Positions 369 through 23,305 of a stretch of 64,000 nucleotides of DNA are shown here, piece after piece (positions within the stretch are counted from its first letter, which is position 1; every line of letters starts with the position of its first letter). The translations under genes and the position numbers were made by a program. Source of the DNA: Thermoplasmata archaeon (lineage in GTDB: Archaea > Thermoplasmatota > Thermoplasmata > RBG-16-68-12); contig DATEUA010000141.1 of assembly GCA_035283405.1 (NCBI GenBank), positions 8,984-72,983 on the forward strand, read 5' to 3'. Below the pieces are notes generated by a model that was not told the origin of the DNA, ran no database searches, and was given only the letters and a program-made list of their open reading frames with translations.

Positions 369-3300
369 TCACGTCCGTGGGGGCCCCGGCCTGACGCTTT
401 CGCCACACCGACCGCAGAACAACGCACCGATGGGGACGGGGCTCCCGCACCGAGGGCACGCCGTCGACGCGGCTCCCGCTGGGTGGACGACTGCCGGCGA
501 AAGCGGAGCGACCTGCCTTCCGCGGCGACGAAGGACAAGAAGGAGAATCGCGACCGTGGACCCTCCGCTTGCGACGCCGATGACAATCGCGACCCAGACG
601 GTCGGCGGGAGACCGGGGAGCGGAAGGGTGACCTCGAAACCCGCCAAGATTCGTTCGAACATGATATCGACTCGATCGAAGTAGCTTGCGTGGACGGTGA
701 GCCCTAGTATCCAGAAGCGGTCGTGTGGGTCGCTCACGACGATGACAAGCTCCTGTTCGACGCTCGTCGACGCGAAGAAGAGCGTGAAAGCCACGGCTGC
801 GTGGCCCCCGACCACTCGGACCATGATCGACTCGACGAGGTTCGCGTCGGGCCGGGCCGACTGTATTTCGCCGACGACGGCCTCTGCGGTCGAGGTCAGG
901 TAGGACTCCGTCTCCCGGACCGTCACATCAAAGTCCGTATCACCGACGAGCGTCGTCGGGACGGAGTCGTACGTGGGGCCCGTCACGATCAGCTCGATCA
1001 CGGTGTCGTCGCGACGGGAGTCAACTTCCTTCTGCCACGTTTGCGGGACCGGCATGCGGAAACCCGTGGCATGCTCGAACGGTACGAGCCTTGGCGAGAC
1101 GAACAGCTCGGCGGCGCCGATACCGGAGTCCCCGAGATAGTCCGTCACGACGAGCGTTACGATAAACATGCCCTCGAGCGCGTAGGCATGCGTAACGCGC
1201 CTCCCCGAGGCCGTTGACCCGTCGCCAAAGTCCCACGCGTACGACACGACTCGCCCATCCGGATCAACGGATTCGGACGCGTCGAACGTGATTGCCTCTC
1301 CGACCGACGGATCGCTAAGGGATCGAGCGAACCGCGCGATTGGAATCGGCGTGGGCACCGGGTCAATCTTGACCAGGAACGCCTCGGGGGAGATCACGTT
1401 GCGATCAAACGCTCCGGGCGTCGTGATGAAAACGGCCGAGGAAGTATCGCCGGTGAGGTAGGCTGCACCCGCCGGATCGACCGCGACCGCCCAGGCCGCA
1501 TCCCCCGAGTTCCCGCCGAGATACGTCGCATACACGAGGGATCCGACCGCGGGGTCGGCCTTCAGAAGGAAGGCATCGTACGGCTCCCCGAGGACATCCT
1601 GGACGGCCCCTGTCGAGGTTGGGAAATCCGCCGCACTCGTCCACCCGCCGACGAACGCATGGCCGCTCGCATCGATTGCGACGCCATACGCGACGTCGTT
1701 TCCGACCCCGCCGACGTACGACCCGAACAGCAGCAGGTCGCCGCCCCCACTGATCTCGACCAGGAACGCATCGTTCAGCGTGCCGGCGCCGCCCGGATCG
1801 AGATCGCACTGCCCATCGGCGCCGCACGTCGCGTCGAACGCGTTCGCCGTTACAGGCAGGTCGGCCGAGGTCGTTTCGCCCACGATTACGGCACGGCCCG
1901 AGGCGTCGACCGCGATGCCCCGCGCGAACTCCCACCCGGTTCCACCGACGAACGTCGCGTACGTCGGCAAATCGCCCGCCGGGGGCAGCTTCACGACGAA
2001 CGCATCCGTCGCGCCGTTGTGGGTTGTATCGTAGGCTCCCGCGGTCCACGGGAAGCCCGAGGATCCCCCACCCGTGTAGTACGCGTTTCCAGCGGAATCG
2101 ACGGCCACTCCGTAGGCGTGGTCTTCGCCGGCTCCCCCTAGGAACGTAGAGTAGACGAGCGACGACCCGTCCGAAGAGAGCTTCGATGCGAATCCGTCCA
2201 CCAAGGAATCTCCAAAGGACGTGTCGAATGAACCGGCCATCGTGGGGAAGTTCCAGGACCATGTCTCGCCCGCGATGTGAGCATTTCCGGCCGAATCGAC
2301 GGCGACCGCGTACCCGGTATCGAACGTGTCGCCGCCGAGATATGTCGAATAAACGAGAGACGCACCATCCGGCGCGATCTTCGTGACGAACGCGTCCTGG
2401 TTCAGTCCTCGACGGAACGGCTGGTAAGCGCCGGGCGTGACTGGGAAATCCGTGGACCACGTGGAGCCCGTCACGTACGCGTTTCCGAAGCTGTCGACGG
2501 CTATCCCGCCGGGGATGTCCTCCGAGCCACCGCCGAGAATCGTGAAGTAGACGAGGGTCCGGCCATCGGGGCTCACCTTCGCGACGAAAGTGTCGAGGGA
2601 AAGAGTGAAGCCCGCCACGTACGCGTACCCGGAGGCGTCCACGGCGAGCGCCCGTCCCAGGGAACGGTCTCCGAGGAGGGTTGAATAGACGTACGGATCG
2701 AGGACGAGCGTATCGGTTGGATCGTACGGGCCGAGCGCGAAACGCACCGTGTGACCTTCCACGACGTAGGCGACGGGGACGGATGCCCGACCTGAGCGCC
2801 GGTCCTGGAACGCGAACGGCGCCGCATCGACGATATCGCCTGCCTCCGTCCGGAGGACAAGGTCCCCCCGTTCGGCCAGGATTGGGATCGCACCCTCCAC
2901 GTGAACGCGAATCGTCGTGGAATCCGCGAAGGGGGCCACGAGGAAAGCGTACTTGAGCCCCGAGTCGGAAAGCGTGAAGACCAGGTCGATGCCGTCGTAG
3001 AGGGATTCGTAGATGACCTCGTTGTAGCTACGTACACCCACGCGCCATCCGGAGGGAGCAGCCCCAAGGAAGGTGTGGCTCGGGAAGGGCAACTCGCCAC
3101 GACCCCGCGGGACGGCTGGATTCGCGCCGTCGAAGCGAAGACGGAACGATCCTGTGGCGCGCGACGCCCCGAGCGGGTCTCCGCCGGCTCCGAGCGACCC
3201 CGAGGCCTCCGACTCCAGCACGCGCAGGTCGATGTGGCCAGCTGCCAGGGCGATCCCGAGGCCCGACGTCGTCGCGGTGAAGCCCGGCGTGTCCCCGGGC

Positions 3301-3374
3301 GTGCGGCCCGGCTCTTCCGTGAAGAACAGACGCCACGCGGGGAACCCACCCGTGACCGAGGAACGCGGGGACAT
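369..3374 (-). CDS. Large cell-surface protein with beta-propeller (SBBP-like) repeats and a PKD domain, then a C-terminal TM helix and a zinc ribbon
   Basis: Repeated segments of the form YSTYLGG...GYAVAVDSAGNAHIAG look like SBBP-type beta-propeller repeats. A PKD-like stretch (VSYAWDFGDGS...VTLVVTD) follows. The C-terminus has a hydrophobic helix (VWVAIVIGVASGGSTVAILLLVLRRR) and then CPRCGSPV...CGRCG. No signal peptide is visible at the annotated N-terminus, so the start may be upstream or non-ATG. Confidence 0.55.
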   Translation of the reverse strand: MSPRSSVTGGFPAWRLFFTEEPGRTPGDTPGFTATTSGLGIALAAGHIDLRVLESEASGSLGAGGDPLGASRATGSFRLRFDGANPAVPRGRGELPFPSHTFLGAAPSGWRVGVRSYNEVIYESLYDGIDLVFTLSDSGLKYAFLVAPFADSTTIRVHVEGAIPILAERGDLVLRTEAGDIVDAAPFAFQDRRSGRASVPVAYVVEGHTVRFALGPYDPTDTLVLDPYVYSTLLGDRSLGRALAVDASGYAYVAGFTLSLDTFVAKVSPDGRTLVYFTILGGGSEDIPGGIAVDSFGNAYVTGSTWSTDFPVTPGAYQPFRRGLNQDAFVTKIAPDGASLVYSTYLGGDTFDTGYAVAVDSAGNAHIAGETWSWNFPTMAGSFDTSFGDSLVDGFASKLSSDGSSLVYSTFLGGAGEDHAYGVAVDSAGNAYYTGGGSSGFPWTAGAYDTTHNGATDAFVVKLPPAGDLPTYATFVGGTGWEFARGIAVDASGRAVIVGETTSADLPVTANAFDATCGADGQCDLDPGGAGTLNDAFLVEISGGGDLLLFGSYVGGVGNDVAYGVAIDASGHAFVGGWTSAADFPTSTGAVQDVLGEPYDAFLLKADPAVGSLVYATYLGGNSGDAAWAVAVDPAGAAYLTGDTSSAVFITTPGAFDRNVISPEAFLVKIDPVPTPIPIARFARSLSDPSVGEAITFDASESVDPDGRVVSYAWDFGDGSTASGRRVTHAYALEGMFIVTLVVTDYLGDSGIGAAELFVSPRLVPFEHATGFRMPVPQTWQKEVDSRRDDTVIELIVTGPTYDSVPTTLVGDTDFDVTVRETESYLTSTAEAVVGEIQSARPDANLVESIMVRVVGGHAAVAFTLFFASTSVEQELVIVVSDPHDRFWILGLTVHASYFDRVDIMFERILAGFEVTLPLPGLPPTVWVAIVIGVASGGSTVAILLLVLRRRGRQVAPLSPAVVHPAGAASTACPRCGSPVPIGALFCGRCGESVRPGPPRT

Positions 3375-11008: not shown

Positions 11009-11464
11009 ATGAGTGCCCTCATCCGGAAGGATGAGCTGGCGGTGTCTCCCGTGATTGCGACGATTTTGATGGTCGCGATCACGGTGGTGCTCGCCGCGGT
11101 GCTGTACGTCATGGTGTCGGGCCTGATTGCCCCACCCGGACTACCGCCGCAGGCGATGGGAGTGAGCATCACCCGTTCCGCGGACGGGACGAACTGGACC
11201 GTCGTGATCGCCCACGTGCCGGTGGGCCTGACGGCGTCCGGGACGACCCTCTCCGTCCAGAACACCGGTGGTGCGATCGCCCTGGCAGCCACGGCGTTTG
11301 AGAGCCTCGCGTACGCGTCCGACGGAGCCGTCTACATCGGCGACGGCGATGCGACGGTCGAGGCCGCCGAACGGCTGCTCATCAGCACCGCGACGTACCC
11401 GACGGGGTACCGTGTGGAGATTTCCGACGGCCGGAACCTCCTCTACGCAGGGAACCTCCAGTAG
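11009..11464 (+). CDS. Archaeal type IV pilin-like protein with a class III signal peptide (Pilin_N type)
   Basis: The N-terminus RKDELAVSPVIATILMVAITVVLAAVLYVMVSG is the hallmark archaeal prepilin signal with a hydrophobic helix. An NWT sequon is present. Confidence 0.75.
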   Translation: MSALIRKDELAVSPVIATILMVAITVVLAAVLYVMVSGLIAPPGLPPQAMGVSITRSADGTNWTVVIAHVPVGLTASGTTLSVQNTGGAIALAATAFESLAYASDGAVYIGDGDATVEAAERLLISTATYPTGYRVEISDGRNLLYAGNLQ

Positions 11465-11756: not shown

Positions 11757-12212
11757 ATGAAAGCCATCATCCGAAAGGATGAGCAGGCGGTGTCCCCCGT
11801 GATTGCGACCATCCTGATGGTCGCCATTACGGTGGTGCTCGCCGCGGTGTTGTACGTCATGGTCTCCGGCCTTTTGGTCGGACCAGGCGGCGGCCCGCGG
11901 TCGATGGGCATCAGCATCAGCCGCTCCGCGGATGGTACGAACTGGACCCTCGTGATCGCATCGTCCCCAACGGGACTCACGACGTCCGGGACGAGCCTTA
12001 CCATCCTGAATGCGGGCGGTGCGATTGCCCTAGCATCTGAGGCGTTCAGCAGCCTCGCGTATGCGTCCGACAGAGCAGTCTACATCGGCGACGCCGACAC
12101 GACGGTCGAAGCCTCAGAGCGGCTGCTCGTCAGCACCAGCACCTACCCGACCGGATTCCGCGCTGAGATCTCGGACGGCGCGGGTCTCCTGTTCTCTGGA
12201 ACCCTCCAGTAA
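11757..12212 (+). CDS. Archaeal type IV pilin-like protein, tandem paralog of 11009..11464
   Basis: MKAIIRKDEQAVSPVIATILMVAITVVLAAVLYVMVSG has the same class III signal. It is collinear over its whole length with the upstream paralog (same SADGTNWT sequon and ...LLxSTxTYPTGxRxEISDG...LQ C-terminus). Confidence 0.75.
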   Translation: MKAIIRKDEQAVSPVIATILMVAITVVLAAVLYVMVSGLLVGPGGGPRSMGISISRSADGTNWTLVIASSPTGLTTSGTSLTILNAGGAIALASEAFSSLAYASDRAVYIGDADTTVEASERLLVSTSTYPTGFRAEISDGAGLLFSGTLQ

Positions 12213-12351: not shown

Positions 12352-12789
12352 ATGCCATCCGTGGACGTTGCCGTGGTCTACGCGGACGGGGGTTCCCGAG
12401 GAAACCCGGGCCCCTCGGCGATCGGGGTGGTCGTCGCCGACGAACGAGGGACCGTCCTGCTCGAGCACAAGGAATCGATCGGTCGCGGGACGAACAACGA
12501 AGCCGAATACCGCGCGATCGCCACGGGCCTTGACCTTGCCGGCCGATTCACGCGAAAGGACGTTCGATGCGTCTCCGACAGCGAGCTCGCGGTTCGACAG
12601 CTCACCGGACGGTACGGCCTCGATAGCCCCGGGCTCCAACCTCTGTTCCACCGGGTCAAGCGGCTCGAACGCACGTTCCATCGTGTGAGCTATGAGAGCC
12701 GCCCCCGGCTCACCGGCCTTCTTCGCAGGGCGGACGAACTCGTGAACGAAGCGCTCGACGAGGAGGCCTCCGCGAATCGCCGCGTCTGA
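12352..12789 (+). CDS. rnhA: Ribonuclease HI (type 1 RNase H)
   Basis: The DEDD-type motifs are in order: VYADGGSRGNPGPSAIGVV, TNNEAEYRAIATGL and VRCVSDSELAV. Confidence 0.7.
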   Translation: MPSVDVAVVYADGGSRGNPGPSAIGVVVADERGTVLLEHKESIGRGTNNEAEYRAIATGLDLAGRFTRKDVRCVSDSELAVRQLTGRYGLDSPGLQPLFHRVKRLERTFHRVSYESRPRLTGLLRRADELVNEALDEEASANRRV

Positions 12790-13046
12790 GACGGATCTCG
12801 TAGTCCGGCGCGACGACCGTTGGATTCTCGATGAGACATCCCAGCCGTCGGCCGCCGGTCGGTAGGCCTCGGGCGCGTGGAACCGGCGATGCGGCGGCCC
12901 GCAGTCCACGGCCATCTGGGGTCGGGGCGCGGTTTGCCCGCCACACCAAGTCGAGTGCAGAACTGAGCACGCTCGCAGATTGCCGAGTCCGGAAAGCTTG
13001 ATGGCGTTCCCCGCTGTTCCCTGACCGAACGCTCGGAGAGGCTTCC

Positions 13047-14888
13047 GTGGAGGAACGCGACCGTCGTCCACCGTTCGGCCTGATTCTCGCGGTCGCCGTC
13101 CTGTCGCAAGGTCTTGTCATCACGACCGCCCCGTCCGCAGCGATCCTCCTGGCGCACGACGTCGCGGACACGGAAGGAGTCGCATGGGATCACGGAGTCG
13201 ACCGAGGCCCGGGAACACCGGCCCCCACCGCGAGCGGGGATGGATTCCTTCGCGTCACGACGGGCATCGACCTCCATCCGGAAAGCGGGGTGCCCGGGAA
13301 GATCCTCGTCGACGGAGTCCCTCGGGACGAATGGGGTCTGACGTGGCTGAAGATGGATCCCGGGGCGCACGTCGTCTCCTTCTTGGACGTCCCGGGACTC
13401 GACACCCCGGGCCCCACGGAGGTGACGGTCACCGCAGGGGAGACGTCCTCCGTCGTGGGCGAGTATCGCGCGAGGGGCTGGCTGCGGGTCCTCACGGACC
13501 CTTCGGTTCCCGGGACGATCTCTGTGGACGGGATCCCGCGAAACGATTGGGGCATGTGGATGGCCATACGACCCGGAACCTACAGCGTCTCGTTCGGTGC
13601 CGTTGCGGGGTACCGTCCGCCGGAGCCCATCCCTGTCGAGGTCTTTGCGGATCGGCAGACGACGGTCACCGGGGCGTACGCGCGGGACGACGCGTTTCCG
13701 GGACCGGATCCGGCGACGTTCGGGCTGCTCCGCGTCGAGACGGCCCTTGACGACGGTCGGCCTGGGGTGATGACCCAGATTCTCCTCGACGGAGCGCCGC
13801 GGGACGAGTGGGGGCTCACCTGGGTCAAAGTCCCCCCGGGTACGTACACGCTTTCCGTGACGGACGTGCCGGGCCTCGGGACTCCCGAGGATCAGACCGT
13901 GAGCATCGCTGCGGGTGCAACGACCGTCGTACGGGCAGTCTTCCAGCGCCTCGGCTCGCTGCGCATCCTGACGGATCCGCCCACGCCTGCGACCGTCTCC
14001 GTGGACGGGGTCCGACGGAACGACTGGGGGATGTGGATGTCCGTGCCGCCGGGGACGTACGACGTTTCGTTCGAATCGCTCGTGGATCTTCCCGCGCCCA
14101 CTCCTCAGCGCGTCGCGGTCGCCGCAGGCGAACTCACGCAGGTCGCAGGTTCGTCTGCCCAGCCTGAACGTTCGCTGAACTGGGCGGGATACATCGTCGC
14201 GAGTGACTTCGACCGGCCCGAGCCCATCGTGGATTCCGCGCGTGGCTCCTGGATCGTCCCCGAGGTGCCCCTGACGGAGGACACGAGGTACTCGTCTGTC
14301 TGGGTCGGCATCGGCGGATTCTTTTTCGGGGATCTTTCGCTGATCCAGATCGGGACGGAGGCGGACAGCTCGCGCCTCGAGACCCTGTACGCCGCATGGT
14401 TCGAGCTCCTTCCGGATCCGGCGATCCGGATCACGGACCGCATGACATCGTGCCCATCCGAGACGAACTCGCACGTCTGCGTCGTGAGGCCCGGCGACTT
14501 GATCGACGCGTCCGTCGACCTGGTCGATCCTGCGCAGAATCGATGGACGCTGTCCCTCTCCGACCTCACCCAGGGCTGGCGATTCGACCTCACGACGGGC
14601 TACGCCTCGTCTCGCCTATCCGCGGAGTGGATCGTCGAGCGACCGGTCGTGTGTCGCCCGCAGTTCTGCTACCTGACGAATCTCCCGCTGTTTGGCACGG
14701 CGAGCCTCGGATCCGATGCGACAGGGATTGCCGGCACGAACGTGGCGACGATCGGCGGATTCCGCGCCCCGCTGGGCGCGTTCGCGCGGCGTGAGATCAT
14801 CATGCACGCGTCGGTCACCGTAGTCCTTGCGGATCCGTCGCCGGTCAGCCTGAGCGGGACGAGCTTCTCCGTGCTGCGAATCACGTGA
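13047..14888 (+). CDS. Secreted protein with four PEGA-type repeats and a C-terminal peptidase G1 (eqolisin, glutamic peptidase) domain
   Basis: A signal/TM sequence (FGLILAVAVLSQGLVITTAP) starts the protein. Four repeats of about 95 aa follow (LRVxT...PGxIxVDGxPRxxWGxW...PGTYxVSF), which is PEGA-like. The C-terminal domain reads NWAGYIV...SWIVPEV...SSVWVGIGG...LIQIGTE...YAAWFELLPD...AEWIVERP. That matches the eqolisin layout, with putative catalytic Gln in IQIGT and Glu in EWIVE. The start is GTG. Confidence 0.55.
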   Translation: MEERDRRPPFGLILAVAVLSQGLVITTAPSAAILLAHDVADTEGVAWDHGVDRGPGTPAPTASGDGFLRVTTGIDLHPESGVPGKILVDGVPRDEWGLTWLKMDPGAHVVSFLDVPGLDTPGPTEVTVTAGETSSVVGEYRARGWLRVLTDPSVPGTISVDGIPRNDWGMWMAIRPGTYSVSFGAVAGYRPPEPIPVEVFADRQTTVTGAYARDDAFPGPDPATFGLLRVETALDDGRPGVMTQILLDGAPRDEWGLTWVKVPPGTYTLSVTDVPGLGTPEDQTVSIAAGATTVVRAVFQRLGSLRILTDPPTPATVSVDGVRRNDWGMWMSVPPGTYDVSFESLVDLPAPTPQRVAVAAGELTQVAGSSAQPERSLNWAGYIVASDFDRPEPIVDSARGSWIVPEVPLTEDTRYSSVWVGIGGFFFGDLSLIQIGTEADSSRLETLYAAWFELLPDPAIRITDRMTSCPSETNSHVCVVRPGDLIDASVDLVDPAQNRWTLSLSDLTQGWRFDLTTGYASSRLSAEWIVERPVVCRPQFCYLTNLPLFGTASLGSDATGIAGTNVATIGGFRAPLGAFARREIIMHASVTVVLADPSPVSLSGTSFSVLRIT

Positions 14889-16810: not shown

Positions 16811-19800
16811 GTGGATGAGGGTCGTTCTTGGCTTCGTACCCATTGGCGGACAGCCCTCGCCCTTGCCTTGGTCTTCGGGATCGCCCTCTTCCTGCGCTTC
16901 TACTTCGTCTACGGCCTCGCCTTCACGAACCTGCAACAGACGTGCGCGGGCGGCTCGGGGCTCCCCGTGTCGGGCGGGTCCGACTCCTTCTACTGGCATC
17001 GCGCCCTCTGCTACTCGTTCGAGACAGGGAAAGACAAAACCTTCGATCCGATGCTGAATTACGGGCCGGGGCTCTTCAATCCGCGCCCGCCCCTCTTCCC
17101 GTGGTTCTCCCTCCTCGTGGGCCAGCTCCTCGCGCCGCTGTTCGCCAGCCCGTGGCAGGCGGTCCTGTTCACGTTCCTCGCCTCGACGGGCCTGTTCGGC
17201 GCCCTGACCGTCTTCCCGACGTACGCCCTCACGAAGGAGGCGTTCGGCCGGAGGGCGGGTCTCGTCGCCGCATTCCTGTTCGCCGTGAGTTCGGCGCACA
17301 TGCAACGGAGCCAGGCGACGGATGCGGACCACGACGCCCTGACCCTGTTCTTCGTCGTCTCGACGTTCTACTTCTTCCTCCGGGGCCTGCGGACGATGAA
17401 GCCCCGCCGGTGGGTCGAGACCTGGTTCCGCCGGGAGGCGATCCTCGCCGGGACGAAGGCGTTCTTCCGGGAGAACCGGCCGTCCGTCCTGTACGCTCTC
17501 CTCGCGGGCTTGTGCATCGCGGTGATCGCTCTGTCCTGGCAGGGGTGGGCCTACGTCCCCGTGATCCTGCTCGTGTACTTCGTCGTCCAGCTGTTCCTCG
17601 ACCGGGTGAGGAGCCAGGACACGATGGGCGTCACGATCCTCTTCACGATCTCCCTCCTCGTCCCCCTCGTCGTCGCGTTCCCGTGGTACGCGAGCCGCTT
17701 CCAGATCCGCGTGTGGTACGACGTGCCCGCGTACCTGTTCCTCGTCGCTGCGGTCCTCGGCATCGTGTTCACGGTCACGCGGGACTACCCGTGGACCCTC
17801 GTGATCCCCGCGACCTTCGCCGGCGGCGGAGTGACGCTCGGGCTCCTCGTCCTCGTGAACCCCGCCCTCGCGAGCGCGTTCGTGAGCGGCGCGGGGTACT
17901 TCGTCCAGACGAAGGTATACGAGACGATCGCGGAGGCCCAAGCCCCCGGGCTTTCACAGCTCATCCTCAGCTTCGGGTTCTTCACCTTCTACTTCAGCAT
18001 CGCGGGCGTCGCGTACATGCTCTGGCTCATCCCCCGCCGGCACGAGGCCTCCTACACGCTGATCGTCGTGTGGACCTTCGCCGCGATCTTCATGGCGATG
18101 GCCGCCGCGCGATTCATCTTCAACGCGTCCCCCGCGTTCGCGGTCGCCGCCGCATTCGCGGTCGACCTGGTCCTGACCCGGGCCGACTTCACGGGGATGC
18201 GCCGCACCTATCGCTCCCTGGCGCAGGGGAGCTGGCGGAACGCGCTTCGGAAGAGCCTCAAGCTGCGTCACGTCCTGACGGGCCTCGTCCTCGTCGGGGT
18301 GGTCCTCCTCCCGAACGTGTACTGGGGGATCGACTCGGGGATCCCTTTCGAGCTCAAGTCCCAGTATGACCGCCAGCTGAACGAGGTTCTGCCTTCGTTC
18401 CTCCGGGCCCCCGGCTATACGGACGGCCGGAGTTTCTACTTCGGGGCCTTCGGGTACTCGATCCCTCAGCCGACGGAGTACTTCCCCGCGGCGTGGTCCT
18501 GGTTCCGGGCCCAGGACGCGGACCGGCCGCCCGAACAACGGCCGGCTTTCCTGTCGTGGTGGGACTACGGCTTCGAGGCCGTCGACCGGGGCCGGCACCC
18601 GACCGTCGCGGACAACTTCCAGAACGGGTTCAACTTCGCGGGTCAGTTCATCACGGCCCAGGACGAGGCCCAGGCGGTGGCCCTCCTCGCGATCCGGTCC
18701 CTCGAGGGCGACTTCCGGCGGAACCGCGGGGTGTTCAGCGGGGCGACGGAGCGCGTGCTCGAGTCGTTCGCGATGCCGAAGGACGACTTCGCCCGCGGGA
18801 TCGCCCGCCCGCAGGACCTGATCCCTCTCGTCCGGGCGAATCCGGAGACGTACGGACGATGGGACGCGGAAATGCAGCCCTTCAACGCCATGTACATCTT
18901 CCTCGCGAATCAGATCACGGTCCGGCTGGACGCCGCGCGGATCGCGGACTTCTACCACGCGGTGCGGACCGCGACGGGGATCGACATCGGCTACTTCGCG
19001 GTCGACTCGAGGCTCTTCCCCATCAGTGCGTCGAACACGGGGATCTTCTATGCGCCCGTGAAGCTGGCGGACCACCGCGTCGTCGAGCTGCCGGACGGCC
19101 GGACCCTCCCGACGGAGTTCTTCAAGATCTTCGTCGACACGGACCGAGGCACCCACATCGCCCTCGAGGACCTCCAGCCGGGGGACCGGGTGTCGAGCCA
19201 GTCGATCGAATACCAGCCCATGTTCTACGACTCCATGTTCTACCGGGCGTACGTCGGGTACGAGCCGTCGGAGGTCGGGGTCCCGAACGACAAGGGGATC
19301 CCGGGCTTCACCCAGACGATGGTCAACTTCCCGCCCCACCCCGCGTGGAACCTCTCCCACTTCCGCGTCGTGTACCGGACCGCGTACTACAATCCGTTCC
19401 CGGACCCGGGGAACCACACGGACGCGTGGCGAGCGATCAACTTCGACGAGGGCGGGCGGTTCCAGGAAGAGATCGGCGCAGGGACCCGGACGGGCGTCGT
19501 GGACCTGAGCACCCAGGCCACGACGACCAACGGGATCGTGTTCCTCCGCTACTACGACGGCGCCTGGGTCAACGGCACGGTCCTCGCAGGGGGCGCCACG
19601 CCGGTGTCCGGCGTGCGCGTGACCGTGACCGACGAGCTGGGGACCCCGCACGACACCGCGACGTCGGACGCCTCAGGCCGATACAGCGTCCTGGTTCCCT
19701 TCGGCAACGTCACCCTGTCGGCCTCCGTCGGCCAGGTCGCGCCCGGGAGCCTCGTAGGGAGCCGCCTCCTCGGGTCGACGACGTTCCCCGTGAGCCTCGC

Positions 19801-22800
19801 GCAGGCCTTGCGAGAGAACGTGGACGAGGACGGGGACGGGATGCCCGACTGGATCATGGCCCGGGACCTCTCCATACCCGGAAGCACGGTCTCCGGGCGC
19901 GCGTTCTTCGACCTGAGCGGGGACGGGGCCTTCGGCGCCCTCGATGAAGCGGTCCCTGGCGCGGCTCTCACCTTCACCCACCAAGACCTGTCCTTCACGC
20001 ACACCGCGACCGCGGACTCGGAAGGGTCCTTCGGCCTCCCGACGATCCCGACCGGCGCGTACCTCGTGGAGGTGCGGGCGGACGGACACTCCGTCCCAGC
20101 ACAGGACATCGACCTCGCCTCGTCCGACACCCGAAAGGACGTCGCGATCCCGTTCGCCAGCCTCGACGGAATCGCCTCGGGCGCCGCCGGGGGCGTCCCG
20201 GCCGACATCGAAGTCGTGGACGAGACCACGGGCATCGTGGTCCGCGCGGCCGCTGCGGACGACGGCGCGTTCGAGATCCGGCCCCTCCTCGCCGGGAACT
20301 ACACGATCACGGCATCCTCCGGGGACCTCGCCTCGAACCCCGAGCGGGTCCGCGTGACGCAAGGCGTGCAGCCGCTCAACTTGACCCTCGTGGTATCAGG
20401 CCGGGTCGCCGGCACGACGCGCCTCTTCGGGGTCGACGTCCCGTTCGCGTCCGTCGAGTTCCAGAAGGCCTCGGAGGTCCGCCTCGTGCGGACGGTTCGG
20501 TCCGATGCGTCCGCCTCCTTCGACGTCGTCCTGCCGGCAGGCGAATGGAACGTGGCCGGACGGCTCTACCAGGGCACCGCCCTGTACGCGACCCTGGGAC
20601 GGGTGAGCGTCCGGCCCGGCGAGACGACGCCCTACGTGGCGCGGTTCGTGGACGGCGCGAGACTCGAGGGCGACGTGAACGGCACCGCGACGGACAGCGT
20701 GGACGTTCTGGGGCAGGTCGCTTTCCTCGGCGCCTCCGGGGACTGGTGGATCCGCACGGGTGTGCGAGGAGGATACCTCGCCTTCCTCCCGCGGGGGACG
20801 TACGCGTTCCAGGCCTTCACGGCGAACTCCGGGCTCCAGGGGAACGTGACCCTCGTCACGTCCCACCGACTCGACCTCCAGCTCGTCGCGGGGACGTCCG
20901 CGACGGCTCGCGCGTTCCGGGACCTGGACGCGGACGGGGACTTCGACGCAGGGGAGGGGGTCGCGGGAGCCGAGGTCCGCCTCACGGACGACGCGGCCCA
21001 CCGCGTCCTTGCGGTCTCCGACGACACCGGGGTGTTCCAGCTCTTCGGGTTCGCGAACCGTACCTACTCCGGATTCATCACGGCTCCGGGTTTCAACGGG
21101 ACGGCGGTCGGGCCTGCGACCCTCGCAGAGATCCGGTCCACGGCCCGCTTCGAGCTCTTCCCGCGGCGGGTCCAGGTCCACGGAGCCCTCGTCCTCGATG
21201 GCGTCCCGCTCCTGCGGAGCCTCACGATCCAAGCGATGGCCGCCGGGGACGGAGCCCGGACGACGACGGATGAGACGGATTCGAACGGCGGGTTCCTCCT
21301 CGATCTTCTCCCGGGCCGGTACGAGCTGATCGTCGACACGAACGTGTCCGACTCCCGGGATGTCCGGTTCCAGAACCGCGGGATCGACACGCTGACCGTC
21401 CCGGTCGGGAGCGACCGTCTGCTTCGGGACATCGACGTCGTCGTCCGAGTGCGCGTGACGGGGAACGCGACCCGGTCCGGCTCCGCGGTCGCGTCGACGG
21501 TCATCTTCGAGGGTCCCGACGTGCGGACCGTCGCCTCGGGGACGGGAGGGTACGAGGTGTACCTCCAGGCGGGGGACTACTCCGTCCGCGCGGTGCACTC
21601 GGCCCCGCCGAGCGAATTCGGATTCATGGACGATACGACGATCTCGGGCCCTGTCCGGCTCGGCCTCCCCCTCACGCAGGCTGCGAAAGTGTCCGGCCTG
21701 ACCCTGTTCCAGAACGTCGCGGTCCAAGCCTCCATGCCGATCGCCTTGGCCCGATCGGAGGGCGGGTTCCTCGAAGTGGAGAGCACGTCGACCGGCAGCT
21801 ACAGCACGGTCCTCGTCCCTGGGAACTACTCGGTCCGCCTGGAGGCGGAGCGGACGATCCAGGAGGCTGCCCTGACCCGCTTCTACCGGTTCTCGTTCGT
21901 GGGGACCCTCGTCGTCGCACCCGGCGCCTCCGCGATCACGTTCCATCTGGACCTGGCGCGGACCCTCGACAACACGACCGTCGCGGGCCGGACAAGCCGC
22001 TCCGGGATCGGTGTCGACGCGACCCTCGAATTCGTCGCCCGCAGCTCCGGGTCCCTCGGCGCCGCGGGAACGAGTGCCTCGGACGGGTCCTACGCGATCG
22101 GCCTGGCGCCGGGCACGTACGACGTGTACGCCTTCCGGGCGGTGGGGAGCTCCGCGTTCCTTGCGAGCCTGACCGTGCCCCATGCGGACACGATGCCGTT
22201 CGACGTTTCGTTGAAGTCCGGGTTCCTGCTGGGAGGTGTCGTGACGGACGTCGCGGGGGCTCGCACGACGGCGAGCGTGACGGTGGTGGGGGACGCCCGA
22301 TTGGACCGCGCGACAGACGCGCTCGGGGCGTACCAGGTGTTTCTCCCCGAGGGCGCGTATACGGTCACGGCCACGCGGTCCGGGACGGAGCGCGGGATCG
22401 CGGTGGAGTACCGGGCGACGGCGTCCATGGACCTCGCGGCGGACACGGTGCTCAACCTGCGCCTCGCGAAAGTGGAGCGGCGCTCCGTCACCCTGTCGTG
22501 GGACCCGGTCCAGCGAGAATCCGTCTCCCCCGGCGGCACGATCGTCTACTCTGTCACCGTTCGGAACACGGGGAACGTGCGGGACACATACACCCTCTCC
22601 GGCCGTCCGACGGATTGGACGTTCGACTTCGCCCCCGGGTCCACGTCCCTCGATTTCGGGACGACGGGGAGCACGACGTCCGTCGTCGTGACGATCCGCG
22701 TGCCCTCGGATGCCCCCGTGGTCCACGGGCCCGTCACCGTCGTCGCGAGCTCCTCGGACGGATCGACGTCCGGGACCGTGAACGTAGAGGTCGACATCCG

Positions 22801-23305
22801 CCGGGTCTTCGGCCTGACGATGAAAGTCCTCGGGACCGCAGGGACCTTTGACGGGCAGACCCTCGAGTACACCGTGGAGCTCAGGAACACGGGCAACGCG
22901 CAGGACAGCGTGACCGTGTACGTGGCGAACCCGGATGACCTGAGTTCCTCCGGGTGGACGGCCCTCCTCGGCCGCGAGGGCGGCCTCTCGCCCTCGACCG
23001 GGCGCCTGGAACATCTCCCCGTGAACGCGAACTCGACGGCCCGCCTGCGCCTGCAGCTCCAGTCCCCGAAGGGCGCGAGCGGTGCGACGGTCGTCCTCCA
23101 GGCCGTCTCGGACGACGCGCCGTCCGTCACCGCGTCCGCGGTCCACGTCGCCACGCTCCCCAGCCTTTCCGTACCGGGCGGAATCCAGGCGACGGGCCCG
23201 AACGTCGTCCGCGCGCCGGGCACGAACTGGACCCTCGTCAGTGTCGCGGTCGCGGCAGGCGCCGCGGTCGCGGCGGTCCTCTTCCTGACGCGCCGGAGGC
23301 GGTAA
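16811..23305 (+). CDS. aglB: Oligosaccharyltransferase AglB/STT3 (N-terminal about 900 aa) fused to a very long C-terminal extracellular repeat region
   Basis: A polytopic N-terminal TM domain is followed by the STT3 signature WWDYG (FLSWWDYGFEAVD). Downstream are repeated beta-sandwich modules of about 90 aa (GxVxxxxGxPVxGVRVTVTDxxGxxxDTATSDASGRYSV, CarboxypepD_reg-like), a Ca-binding-like DEDGDGMPD, two CARDB/DUF11-like modules (VTVRNTGNVRDTYTLS and ELRNTGNAQDSVTV) and a C-terminal TM plus RRRR anchor. At 2164 aa it is about twice the usual AglB length. Confidence 0.75.
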   Translation: MDEGRSWLRTHWRTALALALVFGIALFLRFYFVYGLAFTNLQQTCAGGSGLPVSGGSDSFYWHRALCYSFETGKDKTFDPMLNYGPGLFNPRPPLFPWFSLLVGQLLAPLFASPWQAVLFTFLASTGLFGALTVFPTYALTKEAFGRRAGLVAAFLFAVSSAHMQRSQATDADHDALTLFFVVSTFYFFLRGLRTMKPRRWVETWFRREAILAGTKAFFRENRPSVLYALLAGLCIAVIALSWQGWAYVPVILLVYFVVQLFLDRVRSQDTMGVTILFTISLLVPLVVAFPWYASRFQIRVWYDVPAYLFLVAAVLGIVFTVTRDYPWTLVIPATFAGGGVTLGLLVLVNPALASAFVSGAGYFVQTKVYETIAEAQAPGLSQLILSFGFFTFYFSIAGVAYMLWLIPRRHEASYTLIVVWTFAAIFMAMAAARFIFNASPAFAVAAAFAVDLVLTRADFTGMRRTYRSLAQGSWRNALRKSLKLRHVLTGLVLVGVVLLPNVYWGIDSGIPFELKSQYDRQLNEVLPSFLRAPGYTDGRSFYFGAFGYSIPQPTEYFPAAWSWFRAQDADRPPEQRPAFLSWWDYGFEAVDRGRHPTVADNFQNGFNFAGQFITAQDEAQAVALLAIRSLEGDFRRNRGVFSGATERVLESFAMPKDDFARGIARPQDLIPLVRANPETYGRWDAEMQPFNAMYIFLANQITVRLDAARIADFYHAVRTATGIDIGYFAVDSRLFPISASNTGIFYAPVKLADHRVVELPDGRTLPTEFFKIFVDTDRGTHIALEDLQPGDRVSSQSIEYQPMFYDSMFYRAYVGYEPSEVGVPNDKGIPGFTQTMVNFPPHPAWNLSHFRVVYRTAYYNPFPDPGNHTDAWRAINFDEGGRFQEEIGAGTRTGVVDLSTQATTTNGIVFLRYYDGAWVNGTVLAGGATPVSGVRVTVTDELGTPHDTATSDASGRYSVLVPFGNVTLSASVGQVAPGSLVGSRLLGSTTFPVSLAQALRENVDEDGDGMPDWIMARDLSIPGSTVSGRAFFDLSGDGAFGALDEAVPGAALTFTHQDLSFTHTATADSEGSFGLPTIPTGAYLVEVRADGHSVPAQDIDLASSDTRKDVAIPFASLDGIASGAAGGVPADIEVVDETTGIVVRAAAADDGAFEIRPLLAGNYTITASSGDLASNPERVRVTQGVQPLNLTLVVSGRVAGTTRLFGVDVPFASVEFQKASEVRLVRTVRSDASASFDVVLPAGEWNVAGRLYQGTALYATLGRVSVRPGETTPYVARFVDGARLEGDVNGTATDSVDVLGQVAFLGASGDWWIRTGVRGGYLAFLPRGTYAFQAFTANSGLQGNVTLVTSHRLDLQLVAGTSATARAFRDLDADGDFDAGEGVAGAEVRLTDDAAHRVLAVSDDTGVFQLFGFANRTYSGFITAPGFNGTAVGPATLAEIRSTARFELFPRRVQVHGALVLDGVPLLRSLTIQAMAAGDGARTTTDETDSNGGFLLDLLPGRYELIVDTNVSDSRDVRFQNRGIDTLTVPVGSDRLLRDIDVVVRVRVTGNATRSGSAVASTVIFEGPDVRTVASGTGGYEVYLQAGDYSVRAVHSAPPSEFGFMDDTTISGPVRLGLPLTQAAKVSGLTLFQNVAVQASMPIALARSEGGFLEVESTSTGSYSTVLVPGNYSVRLEAERTIQEAALTRFYRFSFVGTLVVAPGASAITFHLDLARTLDNTTVAGRTSRSGIGVDATLEFVARSSGSLGAAGTSASDGSYAIGLAPGTYDVYAFRAVGSSAFLASLTVPHADTMPFDVSLKSGFLLGGVVTDVAGARTTASVTVVGDARLDRATDALGAYQVFLPEGAYTVTATRSGTERGIAVEYRATASMDLAADTVLNLRLAKVERRSVTLSWDPVQRESVSPGGTIVYSVTVRNTGNVRDTYTLSGRPTDWTFDFAPGSTSLDFGTTGSTTSVVVTIRVPSDAPVVHGPVTVVASSSDGSTSGTVNVEVDIRRVFGLTMKVLGTAGTFDGQTLEYTVELRNTGNAQDSVTVYVANPDDLSSSGWTALLGREGGLSPSTGRLEHLPVNANSTARLRLQLQSPKGASGATVVLQAVSDDAPSVTASAVHVATLPSLSVPGGIQATGPNVVRAPGTNWTLVSVAVAAGAAVAAVLFLTRRRR

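What the first reader, a model, noticed from the sequence alone, without database searches (positions are those of the whole stretch)
13047..14888. Secreted protein combining four PEGA repeats with a peptidase-G1 (eqolisin) glutamic-protease domain
- The C-terminal 200 aa carry the hallmark eqolisin blocks W-x-G-Y, SW-x-VP, S-x-WVGIGG, IQIGT (catalytic Gln) and EWIVE (catalytic Glu). Glutamic peptidases are rare in archaea and are acid-active enzymes.
- The N-terminal half is four copies of an ~95-aa repeat fitting the PEGA domain of S-layer proteins.
- The combination suggests a cell-surface-tethered acid protease. The start is GTG.
Basis: partly seen in the sequence, partly recalled or inferred. 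Interest (0 to 1): 0.6.

Follow-up and report, generated by a model that had tools for sequence, protein, structure and literature searches.

The report
Archaeal glutamic protease with PEGA-like repeats
This gene encodes a secreted archaeal protease of the known "glutamic peptidase" (G1/eqolisin) family that carries four copies of a small PEGA-like beta-sandwich domain in front of the enzyme; the enzyme part is ordinary for uncultured archaea, and only the fusion is unusual.

Summary
The ORF 13047-14888 (+, GTG, 613 aa) is real. Its last 241 aa are a bona fide G1 (eqolisin) domain. Pfam PF01828 scores 52-56 bits against a cut-off of 22.3. A family profile hits aspergilloglutamic (E 4.5e-23) and scytalidoglutamic peptidase (E 2.6e-15). 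The catalytic Gln/Glu align to Q434 and E531, both invariant in 49 relatives. A confident model (pLDDT 90.8) matches the two solved eqolisins best (TM 0.84-0.86).

Residues 66-372 are four real repeats with an A-B-A'-B' pattern and a period of 77-82 aa, not ~95. They model as seven-stranded beta-sandwiches. Pfam PEGA does not match them, but it does match the same repeats in ~50%-identical homologues, so "PEGA-like" holds by transitive homology.

"Rare in archaea" is outdated: at least 522 loci occur among GTDB species representatives. The fusion itself is rare, forming one 50%-identity cluster among 1.84 billion. The four-repeat cassette is shared by hundreds of secreted proteins with other enzyme domains.

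Surface tethering and acid activity are not shown. The N-terminus looks like a cleavable signal peptide. The host is a high-GC RBG-16-type Thermoplasmata relative with no sign of acidophily. This is a new member of a known family and of modest interest.

The parts
13035..13041 (+). Shine-Dalgarno-like GGAGAGG, 5 nt upstream of the GTG start
   Evidence: Read directly from the sequence. GTG is the only possible start in the first 80 codons.
13047..13142 (+). Putative Sec signal peptide (aa 1-32): basic n-region ERDRR, a hydrophobic core beginning at F10, and a candidate cleavage site APSAA|ILLAHD
   Evidence: Hydropathy peaks at about 2.0 over aa 8-18. Orthologues have non-conserved but hydrophobic N-termini. 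Cassette-first homologues have AxA signal peptides directly before the cassette. This is heuristic only; no signal-peptide predictor was available.
13143..13241 (+). Low-complexity, disordered linker (aa 33-65)
   Evidence: AF2 pLDDT is below 50 for aa 1-53. The region is poorly conserved in orthologues.
13242..13475 (+). Repeat 1 (A-type, aa 66-143), PEGA-like seven-stranded beta-sandwich with a 6-residue insertion in the first hairpin
   Evidence: Self-comparison of A vs A' gives E = 2e-25. AF2 strands span 66-142 with pLDDT above 90. The insertion is seen by comparison with the cassette consensus.
13476..13685 (+). Repeat 2 (B-type, aa 144-213)
   Evidence: B vs B' gives E = 1e-23. AF2 strands span 144-210.
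13722..13952 (+). Repeat 3 (A'-type, aa 226-302). It is the only repeat with weak Pfam hits (CarboxypepD_reg, DUF2846, fn3_3).
13953..14162 (+). Repeat 4 (B'-type, aa 303-372)
14163..14885 (+). G1 (eqolisin, Pfam Peptidase_A4) glutamic endopeptidase domain, aa 373-613
   Evidence: PF01828 scores 52-56 bits against GA 22.3. The profile hits 1y43_B (E = 4.5e-23) and 1s2b_A (E = 2.6e-15). The AF2 model has pLDDT 90.8. The Foldseek top hits are 2ifw, 2ifr, 1s2b, 3trs and 1y43.
14346..14348 (+). Codon CAG for Q434, the predicted catalytic Gln (equivalent to SGP Q53 and AGP Q24)
   Evidence: Residue counting in the hmmsearch alignments. Invariant in 5 orthologues and 49 domain homologues. Codon checked.
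14637..14639 (+). Codon GAG for E531, the predicted catalytic Glu (equivalent to SGP E136 and AGP E110)
14451..14480 (+). Clade-specific loop insertion flanked by C469 and C478. Together with C536/C541 (14652-14669) it gives two candidate disulfides.
   Evidence: The four Cys are invariant in the 5 orthologues. They are shared by the stand-alone G1 P0261 and absent from the Bathyarchaeia-type consensus. Model confidence is lower here, with pLDDT 68-74. Disulfide formation is inferred.

Best explanation
The gene encodes a secreted, multi-domain glutamic endopeptidase of MEROPS family G1 from an uncultured high-GC Thermoplasmata-related archaeon.

Proposed sequence of events:
1. An N-terminal Sec-type signal peptide exports the protein (inferred).
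2. A disordered linker of about 30 residues follows, then a cassette of four PEGA-like beta-sandwich domains (A-B-A'-B').
3. The cassette directly precedes a complete eqolisin beta-sandwich domain.
4. In that domain E531 acts as the general acid/base and Q434 assists, as in scytalidoglutamic and aspergilloglutamic peptidase. The residue equivalence is shown; the catalysis is inferred.

The catalytic domain belongs to a large, mostly archaeal clade of G1 enzymes. These normally consist of a signal peptide plus the catalytic domain only, with no long prosegment. In this lineage the four-domain cassette has been inserted between the signal peptide and the enzyme.

The same cassette is attached, usually at the C-terminus, to hundreds of other secreted enzymes: PKD proteins, glycosidases, trypsin- and subtilisin-like proteases, PQQ dehydrogenases and others. 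It therefore most likely acts as a generic extracellular scaffold, spacer or attachment module and is not part of the catalytic mechanism (inferred).

The likely role is extracellular protein degradation for nutrient acquisition (inferred).
For: - G1 membership. PF01828 matches above the gathering score. A profile of 49 homologues hits the AGP heavy chain (E = 4.5e-23) and SGP (E = 2.6e-15), with Q24/E110 and Q53/E136 aligned to Q434/E531. The dyad is invariant.
- Other conserved residues. SGP G41, G44, G55, W67 and P72 correspond to G421, G424, G436, W451 and P456, all present. Their importance is described in PMC6154417.
- Fold. The AF2 model has pLDDT 90.8 and pTM 0.88. Foldseek ranks the eqolisins first, with TM 0.82-0.86 relative to the target and rmsd 2.7-3.0 Å.
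- Cassette. Four repeats show E-values of 1e-14 to 2e-25. The model gives four seven-stranded sandwiches with pLDDT above 90. PDB matches are tandem CnaB/prealbumin-like domains of surface proteins. PEGA hits fall on the equivalent repeats in homologues.
- The fusion is real and conserved. The identical protein occurs on contigs from 4 samples. Four further orthologue clusters at 51-55% alignment identity come from different sources.
- Modularity. Only one of 1.84 billion representatives covers both halves. There are 336 representatives at E <= 1e-30, nearly all matching the cassette only. The cassette is C-terminal in 54 of 95 cases.
- Stand-alone relatives. P0261 (54% identity, same Cys pairs) and the L006 protein (46%) are signal peptide plus G1 only.
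- An NCBI record already names orthologue P0002 'G1 family glutamic endopeptidase'.
Against: - No biochemical data exist for any member of this archaeal clade.
- SGP Asp43, whose D43A mutant keeps only about 20% activity (PMC6154417), is Gly423 here and Gly in at least 90% of the archaeal clade.
- All characterised G1 enzymes work at acidic pH (PMC3009609, PMC6154417). This organism's closest named relatives are MAGs of a clade reported from aquifer sediment and soils.
- The signal peptide was judged heuristically only.
- Single-sequence phmmer against PDB found nothing, and NCBIfam has no hit. The assignment therefore rests on profile-level and fold-level similarity, with about 20% identity to solved structures.
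Confidence: 0.78

Rival explanations
1. This is the first reader's version: a cell-surface-tethered acid protease. The PEGA cassette, or an uncleaved N-terminal signal anchor, holds the enzyme on the S-layer or membrane, and it works at low pH.
For: - PEGA was defined in archaeal and bacterial cell-surface proteins (PMC2447325).
- The cassette lies next to the N-terminal hydrophobic segment.
- In a few homologues the cassette is followed by a C-terminal hydrophobic helix with a basic tail (P0246, P0252), as expected for a membrane-proximal stalk.
- The PDB fold matches are surface-anchored pilins and adhesins.
- All characterised G1 enzymes are acid-active.
Against: - In 54 of 95 homologues the cassette ends the protein with nothing after it.
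- Cassette-first homologues have classic cleavable AxA signal peptides, and the window has a similar SAA|I site.
- The protein has no C-terminal anchor or sorting signal; it ends in ...SFSVLRIT.
- The closest named MetRS relatives are RBG_16-type Thermoplasmata MAGs, a clade reported from aquifer sediment and soils. No evidence of acidophily was found.
Confidence: 0.3
2. The cassette acts as a large prodomain or intramolecular chaperone. The G1 domain cleaves itself off at the short linker (aa about 369-376), and the active enzyme is the free 241-aa domain.
For: - Fungal eqolisins are made as preproenzymes of about 55 residues that self-activate (PMC6154417).
- The cassette occupies exactly the position of the prosegment. 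It ends about 5 residues before the conserved SLNWAGY start of the mature-type domain.
Against: - Stand-alone archaeal G1s have no prosegment to speak of, only about 10 residues between the signal peptide and the domain.
- The cassette is not specific to proteases. It is usually C-terminal on unrelated enzymes, which argues against a dedicated inhibitor or prodomain role.
Confidence: 0.12
3. The C-terminal domain is a non-catalytic, lectin-like binding domain that only retains the eqolisin (concanavalin-like) fold.
For: - The fold is a lectin-like beta-sandwich, and legume lectins appear among weak Foldseek hits.
- Asp43 of SGP is replaced by Gly.
- The habitat may not be acidic.
Against: - The Gln/Glu dyad is strictly invariant in 49 diverse homologues.
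- The active-site Gly, Trp and Pro positions are also conserved. This is the pattern expected under selection for catalysis.
- Eqolisins outrank lectins by about 10 orders of magnitude in Foldseek E-value.
Confidence: 0.05
4. The fusion is an assembly or gene-calling artefact that joins two separate genes.
For: None beyond the fact that both halves also occur separately elsewhere.
Against: - The reading frame is continuous with no internal start codon in the first 80 codons.
- The identical protein occurs on independent contigs from four metagenomes.
- Four diverged orthologue clusters from JGI, NCBI, ENA and Logan share the same architecture end to end.
Confidence: 0.01

Closest known systems
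Scytalidoglutamic peptidase (SGP/SCP-B, PDB 1S2B/2IFW) and aspergilloglutamic peptidase (AGP, PDB 1Y43), the founding members of MEROPS G1 (eqolisins)
   Same: - Same Pfam family (PF01828).
- Same beta-sandwich fold, with TM 0.82-0.86 relative to the target.
- The catalytic Gln and Glu align (Q434/E531), and the active-site Gly, Trp and Pro positions are conserved.
   Different: - Only about 18-24% identity.
- No basic prosegment of about 55 residues; a 300-aa four-domain cassette sits there instead.
- SGP Asp43 is Gly here.
- The fungal disulfides are absent, and two different Cys pairs are present.
- The host is archaeal and the habitat is probably not acidic.
- AGP's two-chain processing is not indicated.
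pepG1 of Alicyclobacillus sp. DSM 15716, the first characterised prokaryotic G1 peptidase (PMC3009609)
   Same: It is a prokaryotic G1 with the conserved dyad and motifs. It clusters with bacterial and archaeal homologues apart from the fungal ones, and it lacks the fungal cysteines.
   Different: pepG1 is a single-domain enzyme from an acidophile-type genus with an acidic optimum. The window protein has the cassette and comes from a Thermoplasmata-related MAG lineage.
Stand-alone archaeal 'G1 family glutamic endopeptidase' proteins (Bathyarchaeia, Micrarchaeota, Nitrososphaeria, Thermoprotei; e.g. P0168, P0203, the L006 protein, P0261)
   Same: - 36-54% identity over the whole 241-aa domain.
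- Same GIGG motif in place of GIDG.
- Same domain start (SLNWAGY) and end.
- P0261 also shares both Cys pairs.
   Different: They are proteins of about 260-300 aa made of signal peptide plus domain only. None of them carries the four-repeat cassette.
PEGA domain (Pfam PF08308; Adindla et al. 2004, PMC2447325) and the related CarboxypepD_reg / prealbumin-like beta-sandwich families
   Same: - Beta-sandwich units of about 70 aa, in tandem, in secreted or surface proteins.
- PF08308 matches the equivalent A-type repeats over the full profile in homologues at 25-35 bits.
- The window's repeat 3 gives weak CarboxypepD_reg, DUF2846 and fn3_3 hits.
   Different: - The window's own repeats do not reach PF08308 at any reported threshold.
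- The A-type copies carry 5-6-residue insertions in the first hairpin.
- The cassette is inherited as a fixed four-domain A-B-A'-B' unit with conserved W-G-(L/M)-W motifs. This has not been described for PEGA in the papers searched here.

Membership tests
MEROPS G1 / eqolisin (Pfam PF01828 Peptidase_A4) | Significant match to the family profile above the curated cut-off | tested here: met
   PF01828 scores 52 bits on the full protein and 55.9 bits on the domain alone, against a gathering score of 22.3. The match covers aa 378-553 and HMM positions 2-161 of 206.
MEROPS G1 / eqolisin (Pfam PF01828 Peptidase_A4) | Catalytic Gln/Glu dyad at positions equivalent to SGP Q53/E136 (AGP Q24/E110) | tested here: met
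   In the profile-to-PDB alignments the dyad residues align with Q434 and E531. Both are invariant in 5 orthologues and 49 domain homologues.
MEROPS G1 / eqolisin (Pfam PF01828 Peptidase_A4) | Eqolisin fold (two-sheet antiparallel beta-sandwich) | tested here: met
   The AF2 model (pLDDT 90.8, pTM 0.88) is all-beta. The Foldseek top five are SGP and AGP entries, with E-values from 6e-13 to 1e-8 and TM 0.82-0.86 relative to the target.
MEROPS G1 / eqolisin (Pfam PF01828 Peptidase_A4) | Highly conserved non-catalytic active-site residues (SGP G41, G44, G55, W67, P72; PMC6154417) | tested here: met
   They correspond to G421, G424, G436, W451 and P456 in the alignment. Codons were checked.
MEROPS G1 / eqolisin (Pfam PF01828 Peptidase_A4) | Asp43 of SGP (supporting residue; the D43A mutant keeps about 20% activity) | tested here: not met
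   The equivalent residue is Gly423 (GIGG instead of GIDG). It is Gly in at least 90% of the archaeal clade. This is a supporting residue and does not define the family.
MEROPS G1 / eqolisin (Pfam PF01828 Peptidase_A4) | Synthesis as a preproenzyme with a basic prosegment of about 55 residues in total | tested here: not met
   No such segment exists. Between the signal peptide and the domain lie a linker and the 307-aa cassette. Stand-alone archaeal relatives have only about 10 residues there.
MEROPS G1 / eqolisin (Pfam PF01828 Peptidase_A4) | Endopeptidase activity with an acidic pH optimum and insensitivity to pepstatin | not testable with these tools
   This needs biochemistry. These properties are known only for fungal enzymes and pepG1.
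MEROPS G1 / eqolisin (Pfam PF01828 Peptidase_A4) | Three-dimensional juxtaposition of the Gln and Glu side chains in the cleft | not testable with these tools
   Model coordinates are not exposed, and only global superposition scores are available.
PEGA domain (Pfam PF08308) | Match to PF08308 above its gathering score (20.8 bits) | tested here: not met
   There was no PF08308 hit for the full protein (E <= 1), for single repeats or the whole cassette (E <= 10), or for aa 1-372.
PEGA domain (Pfam PF08308) | Homology to sequences that are PF08308 members | tested here: met
   Six cassette-bearing proteins, including homologues about 50% identical to the window cassette (P0023, P0056, P0094, P0098, P0106, P0111), score 25-35 bits over profile positions 2-69 of 71 on the repeats equivalent to the window's A-type repeats. 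That is 6 of the 42 sequences scanned.
PEGA domain (Pfam PF08308) | Beta-sandwich domain of about 70 aa | tested here: met
   The model shows four units of 67-78 aa, each with seven strands and pLDDT above 90. PEGA is described as a 70-aa domain in PMC2447325.
PEGA domain (Pfam PF08308) | Location in S-layer or cell-surface proteins | not testable with these tools
   Only a secretion signal can be inferred. Localisation needs an experiment.
Sec-secreted protein | Cleavable N-terminal signal peptide (n-, h- and c-regions with small residues at -3 and -1) | tested here: inconclusive
   The n-region ERDRR, a hydrophobic core from F10, and an SAA|I site were found by a manual hydropathy scan and by analogy with homologues. 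No dedicated predictor was available, and the h-region is long (about 27 aa), so a signal anchor is not excluded.

The most novel reading that the evidence does not exclude
Two linked possibilities are not excluded by the evidence.

(a) The four-domain PEGA-like A-B-A'-B' cassette may be a previously undescribed, lineage-specific cell-envelope attachment or display module of high-GC soil and sediment Thermoplasmata-type archaea. It would be used as a common handle by hundreds of different secreted enzymes. On this reading the G1 protease is one cargo that happens to carry the handle at the N-terminal side.

(b) The large archaeal GIGG clade of G1 peptidases, found mainly in MAGs from uncultured archaea whose habitat pH was not established here, may work at near-neutral pH. 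That would break the rule that glutamic peptidases are acid enzymes.
Probability: 0.25. Interest if true: 0.55.

Novelty: new member of a known kind. Interest (0 to 1): 0.3.

Why it matters
The catalytic domain adds nothing new in mechanism. An NCBI record already names the orthologue a G1 family glutamic endopeptidase, and hundreds of archaeal homologues exist. Two points give modest value:

1. No archaeal G1 peptidase appeared as biochemically characterised in the papers searched here. The clade is very common in uncultured archaea (Bathyarchaeia, Thermoplasmata relatives) that are discussed as protein degraders in sediments and soils. Its pH profile would show whether "acid-only" really defines glutamic peptidases.
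2. The four-repeat cassette is a recurrent building block of this lineage's secretome and has no Pfam model that recognises it reliably. Knowing what it binds would annotate hundreds of proteins at once.

Tried and rejected
- Single-sequence phmmer of the full protein against PDB found only chance hits to light-harvesting peptides. The profile search was needed.
- NCBIfam gave no G1 hit, only a chance TIGR03769 match at E = 0.14.
- PF08308 (PEGA) was looked for on the full protein, on each repeat and on the cassette at permissive thresholds, and was never reported.
- tblastn of both modules against the whole window found no paralogue, only the internal repeat.
- The sigma-70 promoter and intrinsic-terminator scan found nothing relevant, and it does not apply to archaea anyway.
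- A literature look-up of the JGI sample numbers and the SAW39 isolate name gave nothing useful, so habitat pH could not be established.
- The Thermoplasmata CuMMO paper mentions neither PEGA nor this protease.
- The long antisense ORF 12690..14474 (-) of 594 aa was rejected as a high-GC artefact. The + strand frame carries all the homology.
- The idea that short tails after the cassette are always membrane anchors was rejected. Most tails are Ala/Ser/Pro-rich linkers, and only two clear helix-plus-basic tails were seen.
Full report
**1. The observation**

The window contains an ORF at 13047..14888 on the + strand that starts with GTG and encodes 613 aa. GTG is the only ATG/GTG/TTG codon within the first 80 codons. 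A GGAGAGG motif sits 5 nt upstream of it, at 13035-13041.

The long antisense ORF 12690..14474 (-) is a by-product of 66% G+C. All homology lies in the + frame.

All five quoted eqolisin blocks are present: NWAGY 378-382, SWIVPEVP 401-408, SSVWVGIGG 416-424, IQIGT 433-437 and EWIVE 527-531. They fall in columns that are invariant or nearly so among orthologues.

The N-terminal half contains four repeats that are far beyond chance, with pairwise BLASTP E-values from 1e-14 to 2e-25. Two details needed correcting:
- The repeats start at about aa 66, 144, 226 and 303, so the period is 77-82 aa, not ~95.
- Repeat 1 is most like repeat 3, and repeat 2 is most like repeat 4. The array is a duplicated two-domain unit, A-B-A'-B'.

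**2. The C-terminal domain is a G1 (eqolisin) peptidase domain**

Pfam PF01828 (Peptidase_A4) matches aa 378-553 at 52 bits, or 55.9 bits for the isolated domain, against a gathering score of 22.3. Single-sequence phmmer against PDB found nothing, and NCBIfam has no hit.

A profile of the window domain plus 48 homologues (A2) hits two solved eqolisins:
- the heavy chain of aspergilloglutamic peptidase (1y43_B, E = 4.5e-23);
- scytalidoglutamic peptidase (1s2b_A, E = 2.6e-15).

Counting residues in the printed alignments gives the following equivalences:
- AGP Q24 and SGP Q53 align with the Q of LIQIGTE, which is Q434.
- AGP E110 and SGP E136 align with the second E of EWIVE, which is E531. The first E is E527.

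Both residues are invariant in the five full-length orthologues and in all 49 sequences of A2.

Residues reported as more than 95% conserved and functionally important in eqolisins are SGP G41, G44, G55, W67 and P72 (PMC6154417). They correspond to G421, G424, G436, W451 and P456, all present.

The one departure is SGP Asp43, whose D43A mutant retains about 20% activity. It is Gly423 here, giving GIGG rather than GIDG. It is Gly in at least 90% of the archaeal clade.

An AlphaFold2 model of aa 373-613 is confident (pLDDT 90.8, pTM 0.88) and all-beta. Foldseek against PDB ranks 2ifw, 2ifr and 1s2b (SGP) and 3trs and 1y43 (AGP) first. Their E-values run from 6e-13 to 1e-8, with TM 0.82-0.86 relative to the target and rmsd 2.7-3.0 Å. 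Neprosin (G3), YncM-like proteins and lectins follow far behind.

**3. The N-terminal repeats**

An AF2 model of aa 1-372, built with 41 homologues, has pLDDT above 90 over aa 66-370. It shows four seven-stranded beta-sandwiches. Residues 1-53 are unstructured.

The PDB matches are strings of CnaB/prealbumin-like domains in surface proteins: the B. anthracis TIE protein, Gram-positive pilins, SpyCEP, and the regulatory domain of carboxypeptidase D. Global TM-scores are low, as expected for a flexible four-domain string.

Pfam PEGA (PF08308) never matches the window protein. This holds for the full length at E <= 1, single repeats and the cassette at E <= 10, and aa 1-372. Only repeat 3 gives weak CarboxypepD_reg, DUF2846 and fn3_3 hits.

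In other cassette-bearing proteins, including homologues about 50% identical to the window cassette, PF08308 does match. It scores 25-35 bits against a cut-off of 20.8, covers profile positions 2-69 of 71, and lands on the repeats equivalent to the window's A-type copies (P0023, P0056, P0094, P0098, P0106, P0111). That is 6 of the 42 sequences scanned.

The window's A-type copies carry 5-6 extra residues in the first hairpin. Compare LRVTTGIDLHPESGVPGKILVDG with the consensus LRVTTNPAVPGKIxVDG. This is a plausible reason for the miss.

"PEGA-like" is therefore justified by transitive homology and by fold. Strict membership by the Pfam model is not met for this sequence.

**4. Distribution**

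Searching with the full protein found the identical protein (P0001, JGI) and four orthologue clusters (P0002-P0005). These are 54-58% identical by BLASTP (51-55% in the alignment) and share the same architecture end to end. NCBI names P0002 'G1 family glutamic endopeptidase, partial [Methanobacteriota archaeon]'.

All other hits share only the cassette, at 43-64% identity. Their partner domains vary widely: PKD, NosD-like beta-helix, glycoside hydrolases, PQQ-dependent sugar dehydrogenase, trypsin, subtilase, M15 peptidase, Kelch, ice-binding-like and cupredoxin.

An exhaustive phmmer scan of 1.84 billion 50%-identity representatives gave the following:
- 3899 hits at E <= 1e-3 and 336 at E <= 1e-30.
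- Only one hit, P0002, covers both halves (aa 53-612).
- P0261 (267 aa) matches only the G1 domain, at 54% identity.

Of 95 representatives that match the whole cassette in one stretch, 54 have it at the extreme C-terminus and 10 have it directly after an N-terminal signal peptide. The rest are internal or are followed by short tails.

Most of those tails are Ala/Ser/Pro-rich. Two, P0246 and P0252, end in a hydrophobic helix plus basic residues, like a membrane anchor.

The G1 domain alone retrieves 459 clusters at 37-47% identity over the full domain. Most are proteins of 226-390 aa, and several are named G1 family endopeptidase in Bathyarchaeia.

A scan of one genome per GTDB species found at least 522 confirmed loci from only two peptide patterns. 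Those listed are mostly Bathyarchaeia, Micrarchaeota, Nitrososphaeria and Thermoprotei, with a few bacteria.

In 2010 only two archaeal homologues were known (PMC3009609). "Rare in archaea" reflects that older picture.

The typical archaeal form, for example the L006 protein of 264 aa, has a signal peptide, about 10 residues, and then SLNWAGY.... There is no long prosegment. P0261 shares with the window domain a loop insertion bracketed by C469/C478 and a second pair, C536/C541.

The simplest history is that a stand-alone G1 gene of this subclade acquired the lineage's common cassette between its signal peptide and catalytic domain. This is an inference.

**5. Secretion, anchoring, organism and pH**

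The N-terminus has a basic n-region (ERDRR) and a hydrophobic stretch from F10, with Kyte-Doolittle values up to 2.0. It has a possible cleavage site, APSAA|ILLAHD.

Orthologues have different but equally hydrophobic N-termini. Cassette-first homologues have textbook AxA signal peptides immediately before the cassette, for example ...TPAQA|ILQPGEGMLRV.

No C-terminal anchor is present. Export is therefore likely, but covalent or transmembrane tethering is not indicated. Any surface retention would have to come from the cassette itself, which is untested.

The gene is flanked by unrelated genes:
- upstream: two archaeal type IV pilin-like genes and an RNase H gene;
- downstream, convergent: GYD and RDD genes;
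- further downstream: Tsr3-like and Trm112 genes, and a 2164-aa STT3/AglB gene.

The same neighbours occur on the contigs from four JGI samples. No operon partner is apparent.

The window is chromosomal, carrying MetRS, PurD, PurH and an XPD-like helicase. Its MetRS is 73-75% identical to proteins named Thermoplasmata archaeon and Euryarchaeota archaeon RBG_16_67_27 / RBG_16_68_13. PMC9038741 traces the high-GC RBG-16 Thermoplasmatota clade to Rifle aquifer sediments and soils.

Nothing found here indicates acidophily. The sample metadata could not be retrieved. Acid activity is thus an extrapolation from characterised fungal and bacterial G1 enzymes.

**6. Verdict**

The finding is largely correct about what the domains are. 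It overreaches on rarity, tethering and acidity.

The protein is a new member of the G1 family. Its accessory-domain architecture is unusual, forming one 50%-identity cluster in the searched universe. Its catalytic machinery is standard.

The more interesting by-product is the four-domain PEGA-like cassette. It is a promiscuous unit of this lineage's secretome that current Pfam models recognise poorly.

Overall interest is about 0.3.

Noticed in passing
window 13242-14162 (aa 66-372) and homologues P0006-P0120, P0241-P0352: The four-repeat A-B-A'-B' cassette is inherited as a fixed unit in hundreds of secreted proteins with unrelated enzyme domains. There are 336 cluster representatives at E <= 1e-30. 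The cassette is mostly at the extreme C-terminus (54 of 95), sometimes right after a signal peptide (10 of 95). Pfam recognises it only sporadically, as PEGA or CarboxypepD_reg. At least four such proteins (P0029, P0041, P0075, P0103) lie on one 2,297,018-bp contig; P0034 lies on a 2,296,691-bp contig.
   Followed up: partly
window 14451-14480 and 14652-14669 (C469, C478, C536, C541): Two Cys pairs are invariant in the fusion clade and in the stand-alone relative P0261, but absent from the Bathyarchaeia-type G1 consensus. The first pair brackets a loop insertion with lower model confidence. They may form disulfides that differ from those of fungal eqolisins.
   Followed up: partly
window 14313-14315 (G423): The position of SGP Asp43 (GIDG), reported as important for activity, is Gly (GIGG) here and in at least 90% of the archaeal G1 clade. 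The consequence for activity or pH profile is unknown.
   Followed up: partly
window 11009-11464 and 11757-12212 (+): Two tandem paralogous genes of 151 aa each match the archaeal type IV pilin N-terminal domain (PF07790). They lie just upstream of an RNase H gene and the protease gene, and are conserved in that order on contigs from four samples.
   Followed up: partly
window 16811-23305 (+): A giant 2164-aa protein has an N-terminal STT3/AglB oligosaccharyltransferase domain followed by many CarboxypepD_reg/prealbumin-like repeats and a C-terminal hydrophobic segment. It is unusually long for an AglB.
   Followed up: partly
window 369-3374 (-): A 1001-aa protein with DUF7948, SBBP beta-propeller repeats and a PKD domain. 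It is another large, probably secreted protein in the same window.
   Followed up: no
window 13047-14888: The 613-aa protein has only 3 Lys, none of them in the G1 domain, against 40 Arg. It has a pI of about 4.5. It has no N-x-S/T sequon (about 1.2 expected from 7 Asn), although the AglB gene lies 2 kb away. These features are probably compositional effects of 66% G+C.
   Followed up: partly
window 12690-14474 (-): A 594-aa antisense ORF overlaps most of the protease gene. It has no homology support and is a typical spurious ORF of high-GC DNA.
   Followed up: partly
(tool behaviour): The search with the isolated G1 domain did not list P0001-P0005, although they contain the query at 100% or 51-58% identity. 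Its top hit was only 43-45% identical. Counts from that call are therefore lower bounds.
   Followed up: no
homologues P0023, P0059, P0112: Some cassette-bearing proteins are attributed to bacterial MAGs (Acidobacteriota, Burkholderiales, Acidimicrobiia). This could reflect lateral transfer of the cassette or mis-binning; it was not resolved.
   Followed up: no
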